Assembly (NCBI GenBank): GCA_965116865.1 | Contig: OZ220727.1 | Coordinates: forward strand, 1,156,798-1,220,797 | DNA length: 64,000 bases | Reading direction: 5' to 3' | Source: Acidimicrobiales bacterium | GTDB lineage: Bacteria > Actinomycetota > Acidimicrobiia > Acidimicrobiales > Aldehydirespiratoraceae | Shown here: positions 1,507-52,696 of the stretch, in pieces | How the letters are laid out: the number at the start of each line of letters is the position of its first letter | Numbering within the stretch: the first letter of the stretch is position 1 | Program-made: the position numbers and the translations under genes | The notes under the pieces: generated by a model | Seen by the model: only the letters and a program-made list of their open reading frames with translations | The model's database searches: none | What the model was told of the DNA's origin: nothing

Positions 1507-1647
1507 TAAGAGCGTCCGCGAATAGGTGAGAGCCGATTGTGTCGCAGCGGTGTCATTCCCGCTCTTGTTCGCTGCGCTCACGGGCCGCTCGGGCCACGGC
1601 CTCGCCCGTATGATCCGGACTGGCCCGCCTATTCGCTCGGCCTCTAA
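1507..1647 (+). repeat. structured dispersed repeat (MITE/REP-like), copy 1
   Basis: About 140 bp. The core gtgtcgcagcggtgtcattcccgctcttgttcgctgcgctcacgggccgctcgggccacggcctcgcccgt is shared with the copies at 10244 and 13473. Imperfect terminal inverted repeats contain GCGAATAGG and CCTATTCGC. The ends are TAAGAG and CTCTAAG. Confidence 0.75.
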
Positions 1648-1649
1648 GG

Positions 1650-2302
1650 GGTTCGGTCATGGGCTAGCCGCCAAGCGGCTCCGCTGGCGATACGACATCA
1701 AGCGAACACTCAGCGACGGATCCCTCGAGCAAACATGTCCGTTCCACGCGGGCAAGCTCTACAACCCCCGCTTCGGGATCCCCAACAGACGCAAGTCCGC
1801 GCTGTTCGTCCCCGACGAGGACATCCCGAAAGGCGCCACGCGATGCTGCAACGGCAACGTGGTCGCCACCCCCGAGCAGCTCACCCGGTTCGAGTTCCAG
1901 AAGCCCACCTTCGGCACCGTCGCCCACCAGCAGTTGATGGGCTACCGCAACCCAGTCGAGGGCACCAACGCCGACGCCAAGCGCCGTCACGGCCTCCGGC
2001 ACGACACATGCCTCGCCCCCGGCCTCATCCCCCACGCCCTCGCCGCGGCCATCAGCGCCGCGGTACGCAACCTGCAGTTGACGCTCAACGCCGAATTCAA
2101 GCGGAGGCGAGAGCACCAACGACGCAAGACGACGAGAAGCGCTCGACGCAAGACCCGGCACCGTCACCAAGCCCCCCACGACGGCCGCCCTTCACCCACC
2201 GGGCACGCCTCCCCCCAAACCCCTGAGGCATCCGACCAGGAGCCCGCCGGCGCCACCAGCGCCGGCTCCGGCACGCTCACCCCGCTCCGAGCGCCCCCGT
2301 AA
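1650..2302 (+). pseudogene. DDE transposase C-terminal remnant (family uncertain)
   Basis: ORF 1526..2302 first reads through the dispersed repeat. The stretch GYRNPVEGTNADAKRRHGLRHDTCLAPGLIPHALAAAISAAVRNLQL then resembles the C-terminal end of IS4/IS5/IS1182-type transposases. There is no N-terminal catalytic part and no plausible start. The tail is Arg/His-rich. Confidence 0.35.
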
Positions 2303-7325: not shown

Positions 7326-9830
7326 CTAGCCGCCTTCGTCCATCAAGGTGGCCGCTGCGACGGGCACCTCGATCTCGCTGCTGCGGTACCAGACGCCCAC
7401 ACGGGCGTCGGCCGGCAGGAAGGCGATGTCAGGCGTGATCGCTTCGCCGTCGGTGCCGATGAAGCCCACCTGGGAACGGCCGCCGGCGACGCGTCTCGCC
7501 CGGATCTTCCCGATGGCGTTCCCGTCCACCTCGACGTCGCCGCTCACCCGCCAGATGCCGACAGTGGCGTCGGCGGGCAAGAATCGGGCCGGTGGCAGGA
7601 CCCGCTCACCGCCGGCCAGTCTGACGCCGTGCTCCAGCCGACCGTCGTCCCCCAGCCGGACGACGACGCGCAGCCGGTGAGGTTCGGGTGCCGGTGTGGT
7701 GACCGGCGGCGTCAGCCTGAGCATCTCGGCGCTGCCGTCGAGCGAGAGGCCCCGGAGGAACCGCGAGAGCGCCGCGTCTGCGGCCTCGGCCGCGCACAGC
7801 GTCCGGTCGACAGCCAAGCCGTGGACTGGCCGTTCCAGCCGCATCCCGGCGTCCAACGCGAGCAGCTCGTCGACGTTGTCGATGCCGGCAGACTCGAGCG
7901 CTCGACGCAGCGCGTTCCCTCCCGGACGGCAGCCCGACTGCTCGGCCATCATCCTACGGACCTCGGGATCGTCCCATCCATCGTCGGCGCTGCGGGCCGC
8001 CGCGACGATGTCGCCGGCGACGACTGCGGACGCCACGATGCTCTCGGCATAGGCGATCTGGGAATGGACGGCGCGTGCATCCCAGTACGTGAGTTCCGGT
8101 TCACCTTCGGTCTGGTCCAGAAGCGATCGCCAGCCGGCGGCCATCGACGCGTAGTGGGAGGATGCGGCGCCGGCCGCGGCGAGCCACAGGTCCTCTACGG
8201 CGACCGGATCGATGACTTCTCGGGCGAGCCACCCGCCGATCAGTCCCGATGCGCTCAACGAAGCAGCGTACTGCTGCCCGAAAGTCCTGAGAAGAGTGCC
8301 CGAGGAAGGGTTCGCCACATCGATCCGTTGAGGGTCCGACTCCTCGGACAGGTCCGCGAGCGCGGGCCGCTCGAAGAAGCCGTCCAGAAGCTGGGTCAGC
8401 ACGCCCGCCGTGTAGACGGCCTGGATTCGAACCTGCGGGTCGACCGCCGCGTCCGGGTCGGAGACACGGGTCACCTCGACAGTCACCCGTCCCTCGTCGT
8501 CGGCCTCCGCAGCCACCGTGTAGTCGTTGAAGCCGACGGTGACATCAACGGGCCCGAAGACAGGGCCGCTCAACACCATCAGATTGTGCCAGAGCCCGTG
8601 GAATCCGATCTCGTTGCCGTAGGCGTCCTCCGTGACCACGCCGACGAACAGCCACGACGGGCCGTGACCGCCGATGGTCGCCTCGAACGGCGTCACTTCG
8701 TCGTTCGCGGAACTCGACGCACTGGCGGTCGCATCGCCGGTGTGGTAGGCGACACCGGCGTCCCAGATGCCCGAGACGGGGCCCAGCAGGTCGAATATCC
8801 GCCGCGGCGCCAAGTAGATGAGGGCGTGGCTGCCGTCGTCGGGAAGTTCGCCGCCGCCGATGTTGCCGACCCGGAAGTGGACGGAGAACGGGTCGCCCGC
8901 GACGACCTCCTCCGGAGTCCGGACTTCCTCGATCTTCAGCCGGGGCGCCTGCCGGCGGGCCGCCTCATCCACGCGGTGGACGGTGAGGGTGAAGTCGGCC
9001 TGCAGCGGCTGCAAGTCGCGCTCCAGGTAGGTCGTCGCCTCGATGAGGTAGACGCCAGGCAGCAGGTATTGCTCGATACGAGCGTTGCCGAACTCGCCGC
9101 CGTCGTCGTTGGCGCCGATGATGCCGTGCTCGAGCGACGCCAGCGACAGCACTGGGTCGCCGTTCTCGGACTGCAGGTCGATGCGCACTCGGGCGGCCTC
9201 GGTCATGATGAAGGAGTAGGAATGGGCGGGGTGCGCCGAAACGAATCGGGAGCCGCACGTCTCCAGCGACCAGGTTCCCGATGCGGTCAGGTCGGCGCCC
9301 GCTTCCAACGTGCCGAGATGAGCGAAGTCGCAGCCTTCGACCCGGCTCACGGTAAGCGTGAAGTCGGCCGGTCCCCGTCCGCGGCCGCCGACGGTGGTGG
9401 CCTCTGCCAAGTAAGTTCCGGGTACGAGGTCGCGCTCGACGCGGGCGTCGAGGCCCGCCCCGCTGTCGTCGTTGTCAGCGATGCGTTCGCCGTGCTCGGT
9501 GAGCAGGTAGAGGTAGGAGTCGGCCTCAGCGGATGTCAGGCCGATCCTGACCCTGCCCGCCTCGGCGACGCGGAACCGGTAGGTGTGGGCGTCGCTGGCC
9601 TCCCCGAAACGCGAGTCGCAGTCCTCGGTCGTCCAGCGGCCCTCCGCCTCCAGCACGCTGCCGGCCTCAGCACCCAGCGTCCCCAGGTCCGTGATTTCGC
9701 AGTCAGCGGCTTCTTGGCCCAGCGCGATGCTCGACCCGCCGACGGGCAGCACGCCGGCCAACATCGCAACGGCGACACAAGCACGCGCCAGCCGCCGCAC
9801 TCGAGAGCCGTCCCCAGTTCCCCTATTCAT
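7326..9830 (-). CDS. large secreted protein with two pre-peptidase C-terminal (PPC)-like domains
   Basis: ATG 9830 with GGGAGG upstream, and signal peptide RRLARACVAVAMLAGVLPVGG. There are two modules of about 110 aa of the type D.H.Y.F.V.EA.RV.I.L ... NDD ... L.PG.YL.EATT ... ADFTLTV. Confidence 0.7.
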   Translation of the reverse strand: MNRGTGDGSRVRRLARACVAVAMLAGVLPVGGSSIALGQEAADCEITDLGTLGAEAGSVLEAEGRWTTEDCDSRFGEASDAHTYRFRVAEAGRVRIGLTSAEADSYLYLLTEHGERIADNDDSGAGLDARVERDLVPGTYLAEATTVGGRGRGPADFTLTVSRVEGCDFAHLGTLEAGADLTASGTWSLETCGSRFVSAHPAHSYSFIMTEAARVRIDLQSENGDPVLSLASLEHGIIGANDDGGEFGNARIEQYLLPGVYLIEATTYLERDLQPLQADFTLTVHRVDEAARRQAPRLKIEEVRTPEEVVAGDPFSVHFRVGNIGGGELPDDGSHALIYLAPRRIFDLLGPVSGIWDAGVAYHTGDATASASSSANDEVTPFEATIGGHGPSWLFVGVVTEDAYGNEIGFHGLWHNLMVLSGPVFGPVDVTVGFNDYTVAAEADDEGRVTVEVTRVSDPDAAVDPQVRIQAVYTAGVLTQLLDGFFERPALADLSEESDPQRIDVANPSSGTLLRTFGQQYAASLSASGLIGGWLAREVIDPVAVEDLWLAAAGAASSHYASMAAGWRSLLDQTEGEPELTYWDARAVHSQIAYAESIVASAVVAGDIVAAARSADDGWDDPEVRRMMAEQSGCRPGGNALRRALESAGIDNVDELLALDAGMRLERPVHGLAVDRTLCAAEAADAALSRFLRGLSLDGSAEMLRLTPPVTTPAPEPHRLRVVVRLGDDGRLEHGVRLAGGERVLPPARFLPADATVGIWRVSGDVEVDGNAIGKIRARRVAGGRSQVGFIGTDGEAITPDIAFLPADARVGVWYRSSEIEVPVAAATLMDEGG

Positions 9831-9922
9831 ACAGACCTCCCTTGGTGGCCGATCCCAACGGCGCGGCATCGGCTGATCCATGCGTGAGCGCCTAGATCGG
9901 CGGCAGAGAACCTAGCGCCAGA

Positions 9923-10264
9923 CCTGGAACGGACCTCAGAGCAAACGCAGACAGGCGAGAGTCCCAGCCCCATTCGCCGGTCACGCGCACCCTGCCCGCT
10001 GGAACGGACCTCAGAGCAAACGCAGACAGGCGAGAGTCCCAGCCCCATTCGCCGGTCACGCGCACCCTGCCCGCTGGAACGGACCTCAGAGCAAACGCAG
10101 ACAGGCGAGAGTCCCAGCCCCATTCGCCGGTCACGCGCACCCTGCCCGCTGGAACGGACCTCAGAGCAAACGCAGACAGGCGAGAGTCCCAGCCCCATTC
10201 GCCGGTCACGCGCACCCTGCCCGCTGGAACGGACCTCAGAGCAAACGCAGACAGGCGAGAGTCC
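9923..10264. repeat. 75-bp tandem array, 4.5 copies
   Basis: The segment ggaacggacctcagagc starts at 9926, 10001, 10076, 10151 and 10226. The last unit runs directly into dispersed-repeat copy 2. Confidence 0.95.
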
Positions 10265-10378
10265 GTGGTGTCGCAGCGGTGTCATTCCCGCTCTTGTTAG
10301 CTGCGACCTGAGGGCCGCTCGGGCCACGGCCTCGCCTGTTGGTGGCGGATTCGCTCGCCTATTTGCTCGGCCTCTCAG
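10244..10378 (+). repeat. structured dispersed repeat (MITE/REP-like), copy 2
   Basis: The core gtgtcgcagcggtgtcattcccgctcttgttagctgcgacctgagggccgctcgggccacggcctcgcc and the right end cgcctatttgctcggcctctcag. Confidence 0.75.
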
Positions 10379-10460
10379 CCCATCTGGCCGCGCGCCGTCA
10401 TCGACGAACAGCCCGAGCCAGGCCCTCGGAGGTCGCGGCGCCACGCTAACGTGTGGACCT

Positions 10461-12597: not shown

Positions 12598-13476
12598 ATG
12601 GTCAACGCCGTAGAGGTCTCAGACCTCACCGTCAAGTTCGACCACGTCACCGCTCTCGACGGGGTGACCCACATCTTCGAGCCGGGCACGTCCACCGCGG
12701 TGATGGGGGTCAACGGTTCGGGCAAGACCACCATGCTGGAATGCCTGGCCGGGCTGCAGAAGCCCACCGCGGGCAGCGTCCGGGGGGTGACGTCGAACCT
12801 CGCCTACGTGTGCCAGCACCTGCCCGCCTGCTGGATGCCCATCACAGCCGGCGAGGTTTTGGCCATGGGCCGCTACGGCAAGCGGGGACTGCTCGGGCGG
12901 CTGGGGGACGAGGACCGGGCCGCCATGCGGGACGCGGGAACCAAGCTCGATGTGAACCAGCTCGCGAAGAGGAGTTTCGGCGACCTCAGCGGAGGCCAGC
13001 AGCAGAGGGTGCGGATCGCGCAGGTGCTGGCAGGCGAGCCGGACGTCCTCATGCTCGACGAGCCCGTCACCGGCTTGGACATTCCCAGCCAGGAACGGAT
13101 CCTCGAAGTGATCGACGACTGCTCGAGCCGGGGTGCCGTCGTGATCATCACCACCCACCATCTCGACGAGGCCCGGCATTGCGACTCGGTGATGTTGATG
13201 GCCAACCGGCTGATCGCCGCGGGCACGCCCGCGGAGATCCTCACCGAGGAGCGGTTGAGGGAAGCGTTCGCGGATCGGCTGCTCGGGGGCCACGCAGGCC
13301 ACGATCACGACCATGAGCTCATCGTGCTCGACGACCACGGCCACGGGCACGTCCACGGGCACGTCCGTGATGGCCATGACCATCACGGAACCGGTCACAG
13401 TCACGGACACAGCCACGACCACGACCACAGACACCGGGAGCACGGCCATCAGGACCACGGACCCCACGCCCATTAG
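12598..13476 (+). CDS. metal ABC transporter ATP-binding protein (ZnuC-like) with about 60-aa His-rich tail
   Basis: Walker A GVNGSGKTT, signature LSGGQQQR and Walker B LMLDEP. Tail HAGHDHDHELIVLDDHGHGHVHGHVRDGHDHHGTGHSHGHSHDHDHRHREHGHQDHGPHAH. The start could be 12598 or 12574. Confidence 0.8.
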   Translation: MVNAVEVSDLTVKFDHVTALDGVTHIFEPGTSTAVMGVNGSGKTTMLECLAGLQKPTAGSVRGVTSNLAYVCQHLPACWMPITAGEVLAMGRYGKRGLLGRLGDEDRAAMRDAGTKLDVNQLAKRSFGDLSGGQQQRVRIAQVLAGEPDVLMLDEPVTGLDIPSQERILEVIDDCSSRGAVVIITTHHLDEARHCDSVMLMANRLIAAGTPAEILTEERLREAFADRLLGGHAGHDHDHELIVLDDHGHGHVHGHVRDGHDHHGTGHSHGHSHDHDHRHREHGHQDHGPHAH

Positions 13477-13615
13477 AGCGAGCGCGAATAGGCGAGGAAC
13501 CATCGTGCCGCAGCGGTGCCGATCCCGCTCTTGTTCGCTTCGCTCACGGGCCGTTCGGGCCACGGCCTCACCCGTATGCGCCTGATCGCTCACCTCTCCG
13601 CTCGGCCTCTGAGAG
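13473..13615 (+). repeat. structured dispersed repeat (MITE/REP-like), copy 3
   Basis: The left end ttagagcgagcgcgaataggcgagg contains the ATPase stop TAG (13474-13476). The core gtgccgcagcggtgccgatcccgctcttgttcgcttcgctcacgggccgttcgggccacggcctcacccgt is conserved. The right end is cggcctctgagag. Confidence 0.75.
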
Positions 13616-13628
13616 ACAGCGCGGCGCG

Positions 13629-14861
13629 ATGAGAGCGGTTCGGCGGGATGTGGCCGTCATCGGTGCCGGTCCGGCCGGGGCGGCGGCCGCCATCCGGGCC
13701 GCTCGGGGCGGCGCCCGGGTGACGGTCTTCGAGAAAGGGTCTCCCGGTCGGGACAAGGTGTGCGGAGACGGCCTCACTCCCAGGGCGGTGGCGGCCCTCG
13801 ATGAGCTCGGCGTCACCCTCGACGGAGCGCACCGCATCGACGGACTGCGGATGATCGCGGGCAGCACGCGGCGTGAGCTGCTGTGGCCCTCGAACAACCG
13901 GTTCGGCCCCCACGGAGCTGTGTGGCCCCGCCGAGCGCTGGACAAGCACCTCGTCGAGGCGGCCGGGGAGGCCGGTGCCGAGATCCTATGGAACACCGAG
14001 GTCATGCCCACCCTGGCGGACGACGGCACGGTCGTCGGCGTGGAGAGCGCCGACGACGGGGGGCGCTGGCCGGCCGACCTGGTCGTGCTGGCCGCCGGCG
14101 CCCCCGGCGCAGCCGCCCGCGCTCTCGGGGCCGAACGTGTCGAGTCGGAGCCCTTCGGTCTTGCCATCCGCACCTATGCCCCCAGCCCCCGCCACTCCGA
14201 CCGCCACCTCGAGGCATGCCTCACTCTGCGAGGAGCCGGGGGCGGATGGGTTCCCGGCTACGGCTGGATGTTCCCGGCCGGCGACGGCACGGTGAACATC
14301 GGCGCGGGCTCCATGTCCACCATGAAGGGCTTCCGAAAGCTCAACCTCAACCGCTTGTTGAGCGACTACCGGGATCTGGTGGCAGAAGAGTGGGAGCTCG
14401 GCGACTTCCTGGAACGGCCCCGGGCCTGGAGGCTGCCCATGAGCGTCGGCCGTCGCCACGGCCCCGGATGGGCCGCAGTGGGCGACGCGGCCGGACTGAT
14501 CAATCCGATGAACGGCGAGGGCATCGACTACGGGTTGGAGTCGGGGATGCTTCTGGCCGATCTGTTCCTGGCCGGCCCGGCGGCTGCTCCCGACGCCTAC
14601 GACCGCATCATCGGCGAGCGCTTCGACGGGTTCCTGCGCACCGGGCGGCGCTTCAGCTTCCTCATCGGCCACCCTTGGATCCTGCGCAACGGCCTGCGCT
14701 TGGCCGTCGGAACGCAGGCGGTAGCCGACATCACCCTGCAGGTGATGGGCAACCTCGTCGACGGCGACACGCCGGGGCTCGCGCCGCGCGTCCTGGACGT
14801 AGTCGACCGGGGCCTGAAGCTCGCCGATCCGCTGCTGCGCCGCACCCGAGCGGCCGCCTAG
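13629..14861 (+). CDS. geranylgeranyl reductase family FAD-dependent oxidoreductase
   Basis: N-terminal dinucleotide-binding fold DVAVIGAGPAGAAAA, plus KVCGDGLTPRAV, typical of this family. Confidence 0.8.
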   Translation: MRAVRRDVAVIGAGPAGAAAAIRAARGGARVTVFEKGSPGRDKVCGDGLTPRAVAALDELGVTLDGAHRIDGLRMIAGSTRRELLWPSNNRFGPHGAVWPRRALDKHLVEAAGEAGAEILWNTEVMPTLADDGTVVGVESADDGGRWPADLVVLAAGAPGAAARALGAERVESEPFGLAIRTYAPSPRHSDRHLEACLTLRGAGGGWVPGYGWMFPAGDGTVNIGAGSMSTMKGFRKLNLNRLLSDYRDLVAEEWELGDFLERPRAWRLPMSVGRRHGPGWAAVGDAAGLINPMNGEGIDYGLESGMLLADLFLAGPAAAPDAYDRIIGERFDGFLRTGRRFSFLIGHPWILRNGLRLAVGTQAVADITLQVMGNLVDGDTPGLAPRVLDVVDRGLKLADPLLRRTRAAA

Positions 14862-14884
14862 AGGCCGAGCGGGTAGGCAGCACC

Positions 14885-17722
14885 GTGGAAACGGGGCCCC
14901 GGGCCCGAGCGGCCCGCGAACGCACCGAAGAACAGCGGGAAACCCAACCCCGAGCGGCCCGCGAACGCACCGCAGAACAGCGGGAAACCCGGCTCGACGG
15001 GCCGCTGGGAGAGCTCGACTCCGCGTTGCGCGGCGACATCCGGCGTATCGGCGCCCAGCTCGGCGACACGCTGGTCCGCCAGCACGGACCCGGGCTGCTC
15101 GAACGGGTGGAGCAGGTGCGCCGCTTGGCCCGGGGTCTGCGTCGCAGCTACGAGGACAGCACAGAGCTGGCCGAGTTCCTGGCCGATGTGGGCGTGGCCG
15201 AGGCCGGCCTGCTCGCCCGGGCCTTCACCGTGTACTTCCATCTCGCCAACACCGCCGAGCAGGTACACCGCATCGACGACCTCACCGAGAAACGGGCGGC
15301 CGGCTCCAACCGCTTCGGCGAGATGGTCGGCCGGCTGCGCGAGATGGGCTACGCCGACGACGAGATAGTCGCCACCGTCAACTCGGCCGAACTGCGGCCC
15401 GTGTTCACCGCCCATCCCACTGAGGCGTCGCGCCGGTCGATCCTGGACAAGCTGGCCGAGATCTCCAGCCTGATCGAGCAGCGGGCCCACGCGGGCGCCG
15501 ACGAGACGGCCCGCCGCCGAGTGGACCGCAGAGTGGACGAGTTGATCGACGCCATCTGGCAGACGGACGAGTTGCGCCGACAGCGTCCCGACCCGGTGGA
15601 CGAGGCCCGGTCGATCCTCTACTTCCTCACCGAGATCGCGGTGGAGGGTACGCCCGAACTGTTCGACGACATCGACTCCGTACTCGAGTCTGTGGGAGGG
15701 GAACTCGATCCCGACCGGTCGCCCGTCCGCTTCGGGTCGTGGGTGGGCGGCGACCGGGACGGCAACCCCAACGTCACCCCGGCCACCACTGTGGAGGTGC
15801 TCGAGTTTCAGCGTCACAGGGCTCTGCGCTTGCTGATCGAGGAGATCGAGGGGCTGTCGTCGGAGTTGAGCGTGGGTCTGGCGGTTCGCGGGGTCTCCGA
15901 GGAGCTGGCCGAGCGGCTGGAGGCCGACCGCGAGCAGTTCCGAGAAGTCACGGCCCGGTTCGACACGCTCAGCGCGGGCGAGCCCTACCGCCAGAGGCTG
16001 GCGGTCGTGCACCGGCGCCTGCTCGAGACGGACCAGCCGGCGCCCGGAGCTCGCGCCTACCGCTCGGCGGACGAGTTGGCCCGCGACCTGGCCGTGATCG
16101 CTCGGTCGCTGGAGGCCAACCAGGGCCGCCTGCTGGCCCGCGGGCGGCTGGCCCGGGTGCGGCGCATCGTGGCAATGATCGGGTTCGACCTCGCCACTCT
16201 CGACATCCGCGAGCACTCCGAGCGCCACCACTTGGCGCTGGCCCGCCTGTTCGCGCCGCTTGGAATCGACTACCCCCGGCTGCCGGCAGAGGAACGGGCG
16301 GCGCTGCTCGCCGGTGAGCTGGCCGGCCCCCGGCCGCTGGCGCCGCGCGGGCGGCCCCTGCCGGACGGCGCCGAGGACGTGCTGGAGCTGTTCCGGGTGC
16401 TGCGCCGTCAGATGGACGCGCGCGGCGACCAGATCGTGCGCAGCTACATCGTGTCCATGACCCGCGGTGTCGACGACGTGCTGGCGCCGGCAGTCCTGGC
16501 GCGGGAGGCCGGGCTCGTAGACCTGACCGCGGGAGTGGCCCGGCTGGGGTTCGTGCCCCTGTTCGAGACCATCGACGACCTGCGCTCGGTCGGGCCGGTG
16601 CTGAGGGATCTGCTCGCAGTGGAGCCCTACCGGCGCCTCGTCGAGTTGCGGGGCGGCGTCCAGGAGGTGATGGTCGGCTACTCCGACTCCAACAAGGACG
16701 GCGGGATCACGACGTCGCAATGGGAGATCCACAAGGCGCTGAGAGCTATCGCGGAGGTCTCGGACGCCACCGGGGTTCAGACGACGGTGTTCCACGGCCG
16801 GGGAGGCACCGTCGGGCGGGGCGGAGGACCCACCCACGCCTCCATCCTGGGCCAGCCGCCCGGCGCGGTGCGCGGCTCGGTCAAAATCACCGAGCAGGGA
16901 GAGGTGATAGCCGACAAGTACGGACTGCCACGGCTGGCTCATCGCAACCTTGACCTGGCTTTCGCAGCCGTGGTCGAGGCGTCGATGGCCCACCGGTCGC
17001 CCCGCCACGACCCCGCCGTGACCCGGAGGTGGAACCAGGTGATGGAGACGGCCTCCGGCGCGGCCTACGGCGCCTACCGGGCCTTCCTGCAGGCCCCCGG
17101 CCTGGTCGAGTACTTCCAATCGTCCACTCCGGTGGAGGAGCTGACCAAGATGAACATCGGCTCCCGTCCGTCACGGCGCAGCCGCGCCGACGAGGGAATC
17201 GAGGGTCTGCGGGCCATCCCCTGGGTGTTCGGCTGGACCCAGTCCCGCCAAATCGTGCCGGGATGGTTCGGGGTCGGCACGGGACTGGCGGCGGCTCGAG
17301 CGGCCGGCATGGGTTCGGACCTGGGCGAGATGCACGAGGGGTGGCAGTTCTTCCGCACGTTCGTCTCCAACGTGGAGATGACCCTGTTCAAGACCGACCT
17401 GGCCATCGCCCACCACTACGTGTCGACGCTGGTAGATCCGGCTCTGCACTGCCACTTCGACGCGGTGTGTGCCGAGTACGACCGCACCGTCACCCAAGTG
17501 ACCGAGCTCACCGGCAGGGGCCTGCTCGAGGACTTGCCGATCCTGCGCCGCACCCTGGCGGTGCGCGACGCCTACCTCGACCCGATCAACGTGCTGCAGG
17601 CCGACCTCCTGGCCCGGCACAGGGCCGGACGGGCCGGAGTCTCAGCCGAGGACGAGTTTCTGCTCCGCACGCTGCTGCTCACTGTCAACGGTGTGGCCGC
17701 CGGCATGCGCAACACCGGCTGA
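14885..17722 (+). CDS. ppc: phosphoenolpyruvate carboxylase
   Basis: Motifs TAHPTE and GYSDSNKDGG, and the C-terminal GMRNTG. The start is uncertain. GTG 14885 would translate the 45-bp repeat. TTG 15026 gives MRGDIRRIGAQLG. The upstream part of track ORF 13883.. overlaps the reductase gene and is not coding. Confidence 0.9.
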   Translation: METGPRARAARERTEEQRETQPRAARERTAEQRETRLDGPLGELDSALRGDIRRIGAQLGDTLVRQHGPGLLERVEQVRRLARGLRRSYEDSTELAEFLADVGVAEAGLLARAFTVYFHLANTAEQVHRIDDLTEKRAAGSNRFGEMVGRLREMGYADDEIVATVNSAELRPVFTAHPTEASRRSILDKLAEISSLIEQRAHAGADETARRRVDRRVDELIDAIWQTDELRRQRPDPVDEARSILYFLTEIAVEGTPELFDDIDSVLESVGGELDPDRSPVRFGSWVGGDRDGNPNVTPATTVEVLEFQRHRALRLLIEEIEGLSSELSVGLAVRGVSEELAERLEADREQFREVTARFDTLSAGEPYRQRLAVVHRRLLETDQPAPGARAYRSADELARDLAVIARSLEANQGRLLARGRLARVRRIVAMIGFDLATLDIREHSERHHLALARLFAPLGIDYPRLPAEERAALLAGELAGPRPLAPRGRPLPDGAEDVLELFRVLRRQMDARGDQIVRSYIVSMTRGVDDVLAPAVLAREAGLVDLTAGVARLGFVPLFETIDDLRSVGPVLRDLLAVEPYRRLVELRGGVQEVMVGYSDSNKDGGITTSQWEIHKALRAIAEVSDATGVQTTVFHGRGGTVGRGGGPTHASILGQPPGAVRGSVKITEQGEVIADKYGLPRLAHRNLDLAFAAVVEASMAHRSPRHDPAVTRRWNQVMETASGAAYGAYRAFLQAPGLVEYFQSSTPVEELTKMNIGSRPSRRSRADEGIEGLRAIPWVFGWTQSRQIVPGWFGVGTGLAAARAAGMGSDLGEMHEGWQFFRTFVSNVEMTLFKTDLAIAHHYVSTLVDPALHCHFDAVCAEYDRTVTQVTELTGRGLLEDLPILRRTLAVRDAYLDPINVLQADLLARHRAGRAGVSAEDEFLLRTLLLTVNGVAAGMRNTG
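14887..14990. repeat. 45-bp tandem repeat (2.3 copies) at the 5' end of ppc
   Basis: The segment cccgagcggcccgcgaacgcaccg.agaacagcgggaaaccc occurs at 14904 and 14949. Confidence 0.85.
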
Positions 17723-43000: not shown

Positions 43001-43252
43001 AAAATCAATGTATCAAATTTGAGCTGTACAATGCACTAATATCAAATGCCGCAATGCATGAATGCTCGCCCGTGAGATTCTGCTCGAGAAGGACGGCCCG
43101 GCTGGAATTGTCTCTTGCGGAACGGAGACCGCGCAGGAGGCGAGCGGGCCCGCCGTGCGCGGCCGGCGCCGCAGGACACCATTGATCGCGGGCCGCGCAG
43201 GCGACGGAGCCGCCCGCCTGAACCGGAACCGCTCGCCTGTGCGCTCGGCCGA

Positions 43253-43678
43253 TCAGAGCGGGTTGCGCCAGCGCAGCCCCGGGAAGCGAGCGAAGTCGCT
43301 GTCGTTGGAGTGGACTTCGGCTTGGTGCTCGACGGCCAGCGCGGCGATGTGAGTGTCCGTGACGAGGTTGCCCCCCACGCCGGCGGCAGTCAGCATGCTT
43401 CGGAAGACAGCGATGTGCTGCGTGCCCGGGTTCAGCGGTGTGACGCCGGGCGACCGGAACCATTCGGCCACGAGGTCGACGGCGTGCTCCGGAGCCGCCG
43501 GCGCGTCCATGACACTGGGATGGGTGAGCAGCCGCACGAACCCGGCAGCCACGAGCCACGGAACCCCCACTCGCTCAGTTCCGTTCACCGCGTCCTCCCA
43601 CCACCGGCGCGCCGGTCCGTGCAACCGCGCACCGGTGCTGTGTGCGTAGACGAGCAAGTTCAGGTCTGGGACGATCAA
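43253..43678 (-). CDS. vapC: PIN-domain toxin
   Basis: TTG 43678 gives (M)IVPDLNLLVYAH... with VTDTHIAALAVEH and SNDSDFARF. A 4-nt TTGA overlap links it to the antitoxin stop. Confidence 0.8.
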   Translation of the reverse strand: MIVPDLNLLVYAHSTGARLHGPARRWWEDAVNGTERVGVPWLVAAGFVRLLTHPSVMDAPAAPEHAVDLVAEWFRSPGVTPLNPGTQHIAVFRSMLTAAGVGGNLVTDTHIAALAVEHQAEVHSNDSDFARFPGLRWRNPL

Positions 43679-51280: not shown

Positions 51281-51320
51281 TCATGCCCGCTCCTGTTCGA
51301 TGCGACCTGAGGGCCGTGTC
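51281..51320 (+). repeat. partial fourth copy of the structured dispersed repeat
   Basis: By eye, tcatgcccgctcctgttcgatgcgacctgagggccgtgtc is about 80% identical to copy 2 (tcattcccgctcttgttagctgcgacctgagggccgctc). Confidence 0.5.
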
Positions 51321-51650: not shown

Positions 51651-51772
51651 CCTCGACCGCGACGGTGCGACCCGGTGACCGCGCCGGACGCACAGGGGCC
51701 GCCCGGGGCTGCCGTGCCGGTGCCCGGAGGCCGAGCGGATGCACGACAATCTCACGAGAGCCCCGAGAGACC

Positions 51773-52696
51773 GTGAGCGAGGCCGAGGCCCGAGCGGCCC
51801 TTGGGCGCAGCAAGCAGGAGCGAGACGCGCAACGCTGCACAGCCAAGCGGCTCCACCTGCCCGTTCTGGCTCTGCGGGGTGTTCAGCGCACGATCGACGG
51901 AGCCTGCCTGCTGCGGGACGTCGACTGGGAGGTGCGACCAGGCCAGAGGTGGGTGGTGCTCGGTCCGAACGGCTCGGGCAAGACCACGCTCATGCGTATC
52001 GCCACGATGTGGGACCACCCCTCCGCAGGCGCCGTCGAGCTGCTCGGCGAGCGGCTGGGGAGCACCGATGTGCGAAAGCTGCGAGCCAGGGTCGGGTTCA
52101 CGAGCGCGGCGCTGGCCGCCATGCTGCAGCCGTCGTTGACCGTGGCCGAGGTGGTGATGACGGCCAGGCACGCTGCGCTGGCCCCGTGGTGGCATGCCTA
52201 CGAAGCCGACGATGCCGGCCGGGCTCGGGCCGCCCTGGCTCGAGTCGGTTGCGAGGACCGGGCCGACCGGCGCTTCGGGACGCTTTCCTCGGGTGAGCAG
52301 CAGCGGGTGCTGCTGGCTCGAGTGCTGTCACTGGAGCCAGCAGTGATCGTTCTCGACGAGCCCAACGCCGGGCTCGACCTGGCGGGACGCGAGCAGTTGA
52401 TGGTCACGTTGAGCGGCCTGGCTCACGATCCGCTGACCCCGCCGTTGGTGCTGGTGACCCACCACACCGAGGAGATACCGGACGGTTTCACCCACGCGCT
52501 GCTGCTCCGCGACGGAGCAGTGCTGGCGGCGGGACCGATCGACGAGACGCTGACGAGCACCGGCCTCTCGGAGTGCTTCGGGCTCGACCTGATGCTGGAA
52601 CGCCGACGCGGCCGCTGGACCGTCCGAGCGACCGGCCCCGAGACGCAAAGGCCAGGACGCCCGGCCGCCGACTCGCGGACCCCAGACTCGGCTTGA
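51773..52696 (+). CDS. ABC transporter ATP-binding protein (single domain, no adjacent permease)
   Basis: Walker A GPNGSGKTT, signature LSSGEQQR and Walker B VLDEPNAGLD. The start is uncertain. GTG 51773 is in frame. Confidence 0.75.
   Translation: MSEAEARAALGRSKQERDAQRCTAKRLHLPVLALRGVQRTIDGACLLRDVDWEVRPGQRWVVLGPNGSGKTTLMRIATMWDHPSAGAVELLGERLGSTDVRKLRARVGFTSAALAAMLQPSLTVAEVVMTARHAALAPWWHAYEADDAGRARAALARVGCEDRADRRFGTLSSGEQQRVLLARVLSLEPAVIVLDEPNAGLDLAGREQLMVTLSGLAHDPLTPPLVLVTHHTEEIPDGFTHALLLRDGAVLAAGPIDETLTSTGLSECFGLDLMLERRRGRWTVRATGPETQRPGRPAADSRTPDSA

What the first reader, a model, noticed from the sequence alone, without database searches (positions are those of the whole stretch)
1507..1647. 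Structured dispersed element of about 140 bp with imperfect terminal inverted repeats, in 3 full copies and 1 partial copy
Copies lie at 1507-1647, 10244-10378 and 13473-13615, with a 40-bp fragment at 51281-51320. All are in the same orientation and all are intergenic.

They share a core of the form gtg.cgcagcggtg.c..tcccgctcttgtt.gct.cg..c..gggccg.tcgggccacggcctc.cc. The ends contain GCGAATAGG and CCTATTCGC inside TAAGAG/TTAGAG ... CTCT(A/C/G)AG termini.

The core can form nested stems (cgcagcg/cgctgcg, agcgg/ccgct, ggccg/cggcc). At copy 3 the stop codon of the His-tailed ATPase gene lies in the left terminus. At copy 2 the left terminus seeds a 75-bp tandem array.

The element could be a MITE, a REP-like element or a small structured RNA gene family.
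Basis: seen in the sequence. Interest (0 to 1): 0.6.

Follow-up and report, generated by a model that had tools for sequence, protein, structure and literature searches.

The report
Small jumping DNA element (MITE) family
The repeat is a 135-bp non-coding mobile element (a MITE) moved by an IS5-type transposase, present about 250 times in this sponge-associated Acidimicrobiia genome; it is an ordinary kind of element, and its one odd feature is a nearly invariant 50-bp centre.

Summary

The element is 134-136 bp in the window's copies (GAGCG...GGCCTC) and has imperfect terminal inverted repeats. It is flanked by a 3-bp TNA target duplication at a C|TWA|G target.

The genome holds about 250 copies, about 25 of them at least 98% identical. 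Empty sites exist both in a paralogue and in six sister species.

An IS5-family insertion sequence (IS427/IS1031-like) has the same target duplication and similar ends. Related IS lineages in sister genomes carry ends that match the individual MITE subfamilies.

Head-to-tail arrays with a 139-bp period arise because each element edge recreates the target.

The proposed internal stems show no covariation. There is no Rfam match and no fixed orientation relative to genes, so the RNA-gene and REP readings are rejected.

The 75-bp array at copy 2 is not seeded by the MITE. It belongs to a genome-wide class of CRISPR-geometry insertion scars.

This scan had already found the same MITE family elsewhere in this genome and in relatives.

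One point stays unexplained: the 50-bp centre is far more conserved than the ends.

The parts
1507..1647 (+). MITE copy 1, young subfamily A. TSD TAA 1507-1509, element 1510-1644 (135 bp), TSD TAA 1645-1647.
   Evidence: Sequence. 100% identical over 141 bp to six other loci in the genome. Flanks and duplications.
10236..10377 (+). MITE copy 2, older, with a subfamily C-like left end (GAGCAAACGCAGACAGG). TSD TCA 10236-10238, element 10239-10374, TSD TCA 10375-10377.
   Evidence: row 1167033+; 129.5 bits.
13473..13612 (+). MITE copy 3, older. TSD TTA 13473-13475, element 13476-13609, decayed right TSD TGA 13610-13612. The TAG stop of the upstream His-tailed ABC ATPase (13474-13476) spans the left junction.
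   Evidence: Orthologous empty sites CCCA|TTA|GAGACA in six sister genomes.
51281..51316 (+). Fragment of the conserved centre of the element.
   Evidence: genome 1208078-1208113.
51727..51873 (-).
   Evidence: nhmmer profile positions 3-138, E=2.4e-14, 54 bits.
43185..43256 (+). Partial copy (right half, profile positions 71-142).
   Evidence: nhmmer E=2.3e-6, 28 bits.
14859..14942 (-). Weak partial copy (profile positions 49-140).
   Evidence: nhmmer E=2.8e-5, 24.7 bits. This is the least certain part.
9924..10264 (+). 75-bp x 4.5 perfect tandem array. It is not part of the MITE. T (41 bp) is 15 bp of flank including TSD TCA plus the first 26 bp of MITE copy 2. S (34 bp) is foreign. Structure is (T S)x4 T.
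   Evidence: TRF 100% match. S occurs only inside the array. Same geometry as hundreds of unrelated arrays in the genome.

Best explanation
The element is a miniature inverted-repeat transposable element (MITE). It is a 134-137-bp non-coding DNA with imperfect terminal inverted repeats (left GAGCGTCCGCGAATAGG, right reverse complement GAGGCCGAGCGAATAGG).

It is cut and pasted, or copied, in trans by a DDE transposase of the IS5 family (IS427/IS1031-like, a single ORF of 280 aa). Integration occurs at a C|TWA|G target and duplicates the central TNA.

Shown here:
- The ends, the duplication and the target preference.
- Filled and empty site pairs.
- A recent burst of identical copies.
- An IS with the same duplication and related ends.
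- IS lineages in sister species whose ends match the separate MITE subfamilies.

Inferred:
- The resident IS, with one intact transposase gene at genome 2088974-2089939, mobilised the young subfamily A although its ends differ at about 5 of 19 positions.
- Each element edge reads ...CTC TNA GAG..., which recreates the target. New copies therefore land on the edge of old ones and build head-to-tail arrays with one shared TNA (period 139).
- In this 68.5% G+C genome, TWA targets survive mostly at stop codons and between genes. This would explain why copies are intergenic and often abut stop codons.
For: **Copy number and identity:** 249 profile hits, 138 near full length. Seven copies are 100% identical over all 141 bp of the query (element plus both 3-bp duplications), and about 25 are at least 98% identical.

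**Target duplication:** the 3-bp flanks are identical in 52 of 100 scorable copies, against about 1.6% expected by chance. Of these, 46 are TNA. Among the best-scoring copies 39 of 53 have identical flanks.

**Target context:** C at position -1 in 21 of 31 copies and G at +1 in 23 of 31.

**Paralogous empty site:** ...cagcctgcTAAgaggagacgcc at 206993(-) against the same sequence with TAA-element-TAA at 1034979(+).

**Orthologous empty sites for window copy 3:** G047, G043, G042, G016, G044 and G051 read CCCA TTA GAGACA where the window has TTA-element-TGA. G007 has an independent insertion on the same gene's TAG stop.

**Insertion polymorphism between species:** of 16 sites filled in relatives with both flanks found in G000, 10 have a gap of 105 bp or less in G000, too short to hold the element.

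**Partner IS:** a roughly 960-bp IS flanked by TAA or TTA. Its ends are GAGGCCGCGCGGATTGACC and (reverse complement) GAGCGAGCGCGGATTGATC. Its transposase matches NF033580 (IS5 family, 138 bits against a cut-off of 110) and PF13340 plus PF01609.

**IS lineages in relatives match MITE subfamilies:**
- G003 GGGGCTGCGCGGATAGG equals the subfamily B left end, 17 of 17.
- G008/G024 GAGCGCGCGCAAATAGG against subfamily C GAGCAAGCGCAAATAGG.
- G024 GAGCGTGCGCGGATAGG against subfamily A.

**Head-to-tail arrays:** there are 10. In at least 6, neighbouring units belong to different subfamilies, so they are separate insertions and not duplications.

**Co-varying ends:** the two ends co-vary only at inverted-repeat positions 15-17/125-127. 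The same variants appear at both ends of the IS lineages.
Against: - No autonomous element with exactly the subfamily A ends exists in this genome. The only IS of this clade here differs at about 5 of 19 terminal positions.
- The transposase was found in only 12 of 39 genomes of the genus, while the MITE was found in 23 of 24 sampled. Many genomes therefore carry the MITE without a detectable partner.
- The IS shares nothing with the MITE beyond the ends, so the MITE is not a simple deletion derivative.
- The centre of the element is more conserved than its ends. This is the reverse of what transposase recognition alone predicts.
- No transposition was observed directly.
Confidence: 0.93

Rival explanations
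1. The copies are genes for, or cis-acting copies of, a small structured RNA such as an sRNA or leader family. The stems cgcagcg/cgctgcg, agcgg/ccgct and ggccg/cggcc would form its fold.
For: - The stems can be drawn, and the minimum-free-energy fold uses the 8-bp stem CGCAGCGG/CCGCTGCG plus a terminal stem.
- The 50-bp centre that holds most of these stems is unusually conserved.
Against: - Folding energy is barely below shuffled controls (z -1.5 to -2.0).
- RNAalifold gives only -10.5 and -2.2 kcal/mol on the two strands.
- In 412 distinct copies, four internal stems pair exactly as often as independent columns would (0.840 vs 0.842, 0.821 vs 0.818, 0.939 vs 0.940, 0.856 vs 0.860). Compensatory double changes number 17/2338, 10/1489, 0/2084 and 7/1643 cells. 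A frequent A-to-T change at column 40 breaks both alternative stems without compensation.
- No Rfam match even at E of 1 or less.
- No promoter-like or terminator-like site.
- Orientation relative to flanking genes is mixed: 51, 29, 21 and 19 in the four classes.
- Target duplications and empty sites show the copies are insertions.
Confidence: 0.03
2. It is a REP/BIME-like host repeat spread by a RAYT (IS200/IS605-type tyrosine transposase) or by recombination, without classical transposition.
For: It is dispersed, mostly intergenic, sometimes in head-to-tail clusters, and contains G+C-rich hairpins.
Against: - Copies carry 3-bp TNA duplications and IS5-type GAG ends. Empty sites differ from filled sites by exactly element plus TNA.
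- The ends match the ends of IS5-family elements.
- From general knowledge, REPs are 20-40-bp palindromes without target duplications.
- RAYT genes were not searched for.
Confidence: 0.02
3. It is a MITE as above, but its invariant 50-bp centre (profile columns 50-100) is kept by selection for a function of its own. This could be a protein-binding site or a DNA or RNA hairpin that helps the element spread or serves the host. New subfamilies would arise by grafting different IS ends onto this same centre.
For: - Nearest-neighbour copies differ at 7.8% of centre positions, against 14-17% in the left arm and 21% in columns 101-119.
- Across copies from about 30 relatives, the unselected half of the centre (columns 71-100) is 94% identical pairwise, against 50-60% for the arms.
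- Left ends fall into at least four types that match different IS lineages, while the centre and right end stay the same.
- An IS lies directly next to a MITE in G003, which is the arrangement such grafting needs.
Against: - There is no covariation and no recognisable motif, promoter, terminator or Rfam family.
- The contrast could come from replacement of the arms rather than constraint on the centre.
- The contrast could also come from horizontal spread of recent master copies. The IS is 96-97% identical between G000 and G049, while a flanking gene region is about 84-85% identical.
- The copies from relatives were picked by an exact 20-mer in the centre, which biases the set.
- Too few clearly orthologous filled sites (about 3) were found to test selection in place.
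Confidence: 0.2

Closest known systems
IS5-family insertion sequences of the IS427/IS1031 groups, for example IS1237 and ISLxx6 of the actinobacterium Leifsonia xyli (PMC2516522)
   Same: - The partner IS here is about 960 bp and has a single transposase ORF. It matches NF033580, PF13340 and PF01609, has GAG ends and makes a 3-nt target duplication.
- PMC2516522 describes ISLxx6 as having a single ORF and a 3-nt insertion site, features it attributes to the IS1031 group.
- The MITE shares the end sequences and the duplication.
   Different: - The MITE is 135 bp and encodes nothing. It shares only about 17-19 terminal bases with the IS.
- Group assignment within IS5 was not tested with a tree or with ISfinder.
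Tourist-like MITEs and their PIF/Harbinger transposases in eukaryotes (from general knowledge; not tested here)
   Same: Short non-coding elements that share only their terminal repeats with the autonomous element. They make 3-bp TWA/TNA target duplications. The DDE transposases are related to the IS5 family.
   Different: Those are eukaryotic hosts, and PIF/Harbinger needs a second Myb-like protein. Nothing comparable was looked for here.
Bacterial MITEs such as the Correia elements of Neisseria (general knowledge; prokaryotic MITEs reviewed in PMC10969869)
   Same: Elements of about 100-150 bp with terminal inverted repeats and short A/T-containing duplications. They occur in hundreds of copies, mostly between genes, and sometimes alter gene ends.
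   Different: The ends and partner family are different. Here the partner IS is identifiable, the element targets its own edges to form 139-bp arrays, and the centre is more conserved than the ends.
REP/BIME elements and MIRUs (mycobacterial interspersed repetitive units)
   Same: Dispersed or tandem intergenic repeats in high copy number. MIRU-like tandem arrays are common in this genome.
   Different: This element has transposon ends, target duplications and empty sites. Its arrays contain units of different subfamilies, so they come from insertion and not slippage.

Membership tests
MITE (miniature inverted-repeat transposable element) | Short (under about 600 bp) and without coding capacity | tested here: met
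   Elements are 135-137 bp in 77 of 100 measured copies. There is no transposase ORF. The ORFs that cross copy 1 have no Pfam match.
MITE (miniature inverted-repeat transposable element) | Terminal inverted repeats | tested here: met
   Left GAGCGTCCGCGAATAGG against the reverse complement of the right end, GAGGCCGAGCGAATAGG: 13 of 17 in register. The ends co-vary at positions 15-17/125-127.
MITE (miniature inverted-repeat transposable element) | Target-site duplication of fixed length | tested here: met
   3-bp duplications are identical in 52 of 100 copies, and 46 of them are TNA. Flank context is C|TWA|G.
MITE (miniature inverted-repeat transposable element) | Evidence of insertion: filled and empty sites differ by element plus duplication | tested here: met
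   Paralogous pair 206993(-) and 1034979(+). Orthologous empty sites in six sister genomes for window copy 3.
MITE (miniature inverted-repeat transposable element) | Multiple copies, including near-identical ones | tested here: met
   249 hits, with about 25 copies at least 98% identical.
MITE (miniature inverted-repeat transposable element) | An autonomous element with matching ends and the same duplication that can supply transposase | tested here: met
   An IS5-family IS with TNA duplication has ends matching at 14 of 19 positions in this genome, and at 15-17 of 17-19 positions for the IS lineages of sister genomes. Mobilisation itself was not tested.
IS5 family, IS427/IS1031 groups (partner IS) | DDE transposase of the IS5 type | tested here: met
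   NF033580, 138 bits (cut-off 110). PF13340 and PF01609 both above their cut-offs.
IS5 family, IS427/IS1031 groups (partner IS) | Size of about 800-1000 bp, GAG ends and a 2-4-bp duplication (3-bp TNA for IS1031-like elements) | tested here: met
   960-bp element. Its ends are GAGGCC... (left) and GAGCGA... (right end, read as reverse complement), flanked by TAA or TTA in three copies. The group criteria come from general knowledge and from PMC2516522.
IS5 family, IS427/IS1031 groups (partner IS) | Placement within a named group by phylogeny or ISfinder comparison | not tested
   No ISfinder library is available, and no tree was built.
Structured non-coding RNA family | Base pairs supported by compensatory changes | tested here: not met
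   Four internal stems show paired fractions equal to the independent-column expectation, with 0-17 double changes per stem in 412 sequences.
Structured non-coding RNA family | Match to a curated family or a constant position relative to genes | tested here: not met
   No Rfam hit at the gathering threshold or at E of 1 or less. Orientation classes are 51, 29, 21 and 19.
Structured non-coding RNA family | A discrete transcript | not testable with these tools
REP/BIME (RAYT-dependent) | Short imperfect palindromes without target duplication, associated with a RAYT gene | tested here: not met
   The element makes TNA duplications and has IS5-like ends. RAYT genes were not searched for.

The most novel reading that the evidence does not exclude
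The MITE may be a vehicle for a functional 50-bp module. Its centre (TCCCGCTCTTGTTCGCTGCGCTCACGGGCCGCTCGGGCCACGGCCTCGCC) would be kept nearly invariant across subfamilies and across a whole genus of sponge-associated Acidimicrobiia by selection, acting as a protein-binding site or a DNA or RNA hairpin. Different IS5-type ends would be grafted onto it repeatedly, so the element would outlive any single transposase lineage.
Probability: 0.18. Interest if true: 0.6.

Novelty: new member of a known kind. Interest (0 to 1): 0.3.

Why it matters
**For annotation.** About 250 copies, close to 1% of a 3.3-Mb genome, sit between genes and on stop codons. They create spurious ORFs, as at 1526-2302, and break assemblies of related MAGs.

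**For biology.**
- The family gives a clean natural record of an IS5-type transposase acting in trans in uncultured sponge symbionts.
- It shows how a TWA target in a G+C-rich genome funnels insertions to stop codons.
- It shows how self-targeting builds tandem arrays.

**Insertion polymorphism.** Differences between sister species could serve as strain markers.

**Open point.** The only feature that is more than routine is the centre being more conserved than the ends. If this reflects a function, it would be an unusual case of a MITE carrying a selected module.

Tried and rejected
- **Rfam:** nothing but tRNAs at the gathering threshold on the whole window, and nothing at E of 1 or less on copy 1.
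- **Promoter and terminator scan of copy 1:** none found.
- **Single-sequence folds on both strands and as DNA:** z only -1.5 to -2.0. The RNAalifold consensus is weak.
- **Autonomous element with exactly the MITE ends in this genome:** not found. The search used fuzzy end motifs near all IS5-type transposase loci and pairs of solo ends.
- **PF13586:** no hit.
- **MITE profile against the IS loci of this and sister genomes:** no similarity inside the IS, only neighbouring MITE copies. The deletion-derivative idea is therefore rejected.
- **Plasmid and phage collections:** no match.
- **Literature:** no paper on repeats or MITEs in these taxa. The MITE review holds nothing specific.
- **Orthologous state of copies 1 and 2 in five close relatives:** synteny is broken there, so there is no empty or filled call.
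- **In-place selection test on orthologous filled sites:** only about 3 candidate pairs were found, and it is unclear whether they are orthologous or independent hits.
- **Gene context:** this rests on my own crude codon-usage gene caller (2505 genes, 81% coverage). The counts of copies inside ORFs (18 of 138) and on stop codons (11 of 104) are approximate.

Full report
**Observation**

Reading the junctions gives these boundaries:
- Copy 1: TAA | 1510-1644 | TAA.
- Copy 2: TCA | 10239-10374 | TCA.
- Copy 3: TTA | 13476-13609 | TGA.

A profile built from the copies finds three more in the window: a degenerate full-length copy at 51727-51873 on the minus strand, and partial copies at 43185-43256 (+) and 14859-14942 (-). 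The shared orientation of the listed copies is therefore not a rule.

**Genome-wide picture**

The window lies at 1156798-1220797 of a single 3.32-Mb contig with 68.5% G+C.
- blastn with the three copies gives 221 clusters.
- Iterated nhmmer gives 216, then 245, then 249 hits, of which 138 are at least 120 bp long.
- Seven copies are 100% identical over all 141 bp of the query (element plus both 3-bp duplications), and about 25 are at least 98% identical.
- Another identical copy lies 538 bp before the window start.

Using my own codon-usage gene caller (2505 genes, 81% of the genome), 120 of 138 long copies are intergenic.

Orientation relative to the flanking genes is mixed. The four classes hold 51, 29, 21 and 19 copies, and the strand split is 79 plus to 59 minus.

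**It is an insertion with a 3-bp duplication**

Lining up the near-identical copies shows unrelated flanks up to TAA or TTA on both sides of GAGCG...GGCCTC.
- Of 100 copies whose two ends could be located, 52 have identical 3-bp flanks, and 46 of those are TNA. Among the best-scoring copies the figure is 39 of 53.
- The base before the duplication is C in 21 of 31 copies and the base after is G in 23 of 31. The target is therefore C|TWA|G.

Two kinds of empty site were found.
- **Paralogous.** An IS3-type element carries the MITE between its left end and orfA in three copies. A sister copy at 206993(-) reads ...cagcctgcTAAgaggagacgcc. The copy at 1034979(+) reads the same with TAA-element-TAA.
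- **Orthologous.** For window copy 3, the genomes G047, G043, G042, G016, G044 and G051 read CCCA TTA GAGACA... where the window has TTA-element-TGA.

The TAG stop of the His-tailed ABC ATPase (Pfam ABC_tran) is already present in the empty sites. It is preserved after insertion because the element begins with G.

G007 has a separate insertion on the same gene's TAG stop. G023 and G024 hold a shorter derivative in the same spacer.

Of 16 sites filled in relatives for which both flanks were found in this genome, 10 leave a gap of 105 bp or less here, too short to hold the element.

**The partner**

The genome has seven DUF4096 (PF13340) hits, all in one IS type of about 960 bp.
- Its copies are flanked by TAA or TTA in a C...G context.
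- Its ends are GAGGCCGCGCGGATTGACC and, as reverse complement, GAGCGAGCGCGGATTGATC.
- The MITE's right end resembles the first and its left end resembles the second, at 14 of 19 positions each.
- One copy, at 2088974-2089939, has an intact 280-aa ORF. Two others carry a stop.
- The protein matches NF033580 (IS5 family, 138 bits, cut-off 110), PF13340 and PF01609.

PMC2516522 describes related actinobacterial elements (IS1237 and ISLxx6) assigned to the IS427 group. ISLxx6 has the IS1031-like traits of a single ORF and a 3-nt target.

Homologues of the transposase (58-70% identical) in sister genomes sit in ISs whose ends match the MITE subfamilies seen here:
- G003 GGGGCTGCGCGGATAGG equals subfamily B, 17 of 17.
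- G008 and G024 GAGCGCGCGCAAATAGG resembles subfamily C (GAGCAAGCGCAAATAGG).
- G024 GAGCGTGCGCGGATAGG resembles subfamily A (GAGCGTCCGCGAATAGG).

The IS interior has no similarity to the MITE, so only the ends are shared.

The MITE occurs in 23 of 24 sampled genomes of the genus and weakly in 1 of 16 outside it. The transposase was found in 12 of 39. Many genomes therefore hold copies without a detectable partner.

Record titles of matching contigs name Acidimicrobiia MAGs, including Candidatus Aldehydirespirator and Candidatus Poriferisodalis.

**Tandem arrays of the element**

There are ten head-to-tail arrays of 2-4 units with a single TNA between units (period 138-139).
- In at least six, neighbouring units belong to different subfamilies. 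They are successive insertions, not duplications.
- The junction ...CTC TNA GAG... is itself a C|TNA|G target. This is the simplest reason why new copies land on old edges (inference).

**Structure**

Folds of copy 1 are only slightly better than shuffles (z -1.52, -1.99 and -1.88). The alignment fold is weak.

In 412 distinct copies from this genome and its relatives, the four internal stems pair as often as independent columns would, with almost no compensatory changes. A common A-to-T change at column 40 breaks both alternative stems.

Only inverted-repeat positions 15-17/125-127 co-vary (119 double-change cells). The same variants occur at both ends of the IS lineages, so recognition by a shared transposase is enough to explain this.

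There is no Rfam hit and no promoter-like or terminator-like site.

**What remains odd**

The centre (columns 50-100) differs between nearest-neighbour copies at 7.8% of positions. The left arm differs at 14-17% and columns 101-119 at 21%.

Among copies from about 30 relatives, the half of the centre that played no part in their selection is 94% identical pairwise, against 50-60% for the arms.

Possible reasons, which could not be separated here:
- Selection on the centre.
- Repeated replacement of the arms by IS ends. An IS lies directly against a MITE in G003.
- Recent horizontal spread of master copies. The IS is 96-97% identical between this genome and G049, while a neighbouring gene region is about 84-85% identical.

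**The 75-bp array at copy 2**

TRF reports 4.5 perfect copies at 9924-10264.
- The repeated 41 bp (T) consists of 15 bp of flank including the TCA duplication plus the first 26 bp of the MITE.
- The other 34 bp (S) is not in the MITE consensus and occurs nowhere else in the genome.
- S was therefore inserted into an existing MITE junction with T duplicated. The MITE did not seed the array.

The same (T S)n T geometry recurs genome-wide:
- 368 arrays have periods of 58-80 bp, and 344 of them are unrelated in sequence.
- T is about 36 bp for periods 71-74 and about 28 bp for periods 61-62.
- About 300 more single T-S-T structures lie outside those arrays at offsets 60-61 and 71-75.
- The genome's one CRISPR array has 146 repeats of 36 bp, with periods of 72 or 73, next to its single Cas1 gene.
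- Some S segments have exact 32-37-bp matches elsewhere in the genome.

I reached this reading before looking up earlier notes. The scan had already reported it for this window (e1-3342317).

**Comparison and verdict**

The element meets every defining feature of a MITE that could be tested. Its partner meets the features of an IS5-family element of the IS427/IS1031 type.

No paper in the searchable library describes it. This scan had already described the family in this genome and in relatives (e1-2141069 and e1-2150168), and my independent tests agree.

It is a new member of a known kind. Interest is modest, and the conserved centre is the only feature worth further work.

Noticed in passing
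window 9924-10264; genome-wide in G000: Hundreds of unrelated tandem arrays and single T-S-T structures share the geometry of the resident CRISPR array.
- 368 arrays have periods of 58-80 bp and total 119 kb. About 300 single units lie outside them at offsets 60-61 and 71-75.
- T is about 36 bp and S about 36 bp, or T about 28 bp and S about 33 bp.
- The resident CRISPR array at G000 1358520-1369103 has a 36-bp repeat and a period of 72/73, next to one Cas1 at 1369791-1370630.
- Some S segments match other genome sites exactly.
- This looks like off-target spacer integration followed by slippage.
- The T28/S33 class has no matching second Cas1 in the genome.
   Followed up: partly
G000 2088974-2089939, 1858592-1859557, 2408121-2409086; G049 (L132, L143, L150): The IS5-family IS is 96-97% identical in protein between this genome and G049, which has 7 intact copies. 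A neighbouring gene region is only about 84-85% identical between the two. This suggests recent horizontal transfer of the IS between species of the genus.
   Followed up: no
G000 1024853(+), 75878(-), 1034979(+), 2751287(-): An IS3-type element carries the MITE at a TAA just upstream of its orfA in three copies. In a fourth copy the IS5-type IS itself sits at the same TAA. Either this is a hot spot, or the MITE hitch-hikes inside the IS3 element.
   Followed up: partly
L163 (G023) and L162 (G024), spacer orthologous to window 13473-13625: A shorter derivative of about 75 bp (GATTCCCGCTCTTGTT...CTCGCAAGCTCGGCCTCT) occupies the same spacer. It consists of the centre plus the right end. It is tandemly doubled in G023.
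   Followed up: no
window 1526-2302 (+): A 258-aa ORF starts inside MITE copy 1 and runs into the downstream sequence. It has no Pfam match, and the part beyond the element looks like a gene remnant. It is probably a spurious or MITE-extended ORF.
   Followed up: partly
G000 1156259-1156399 and window 1507-1647: Two identical, same-strand copies of the MITE bracket a 1.9-kb segment that holds a split secreted-protein gene. Whether the pair moved as a composite was not examined.
   Followed up: no
window 9800-10420 compared with G047, G044, G042, G016 and G043: The genes on either side of copy 2 and the 75-bp array are adjacent here but 3-4 kb apart in five close relatives. This genome has therefore lost or rearranged the intervening genes at this spot.
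   Followed up: no
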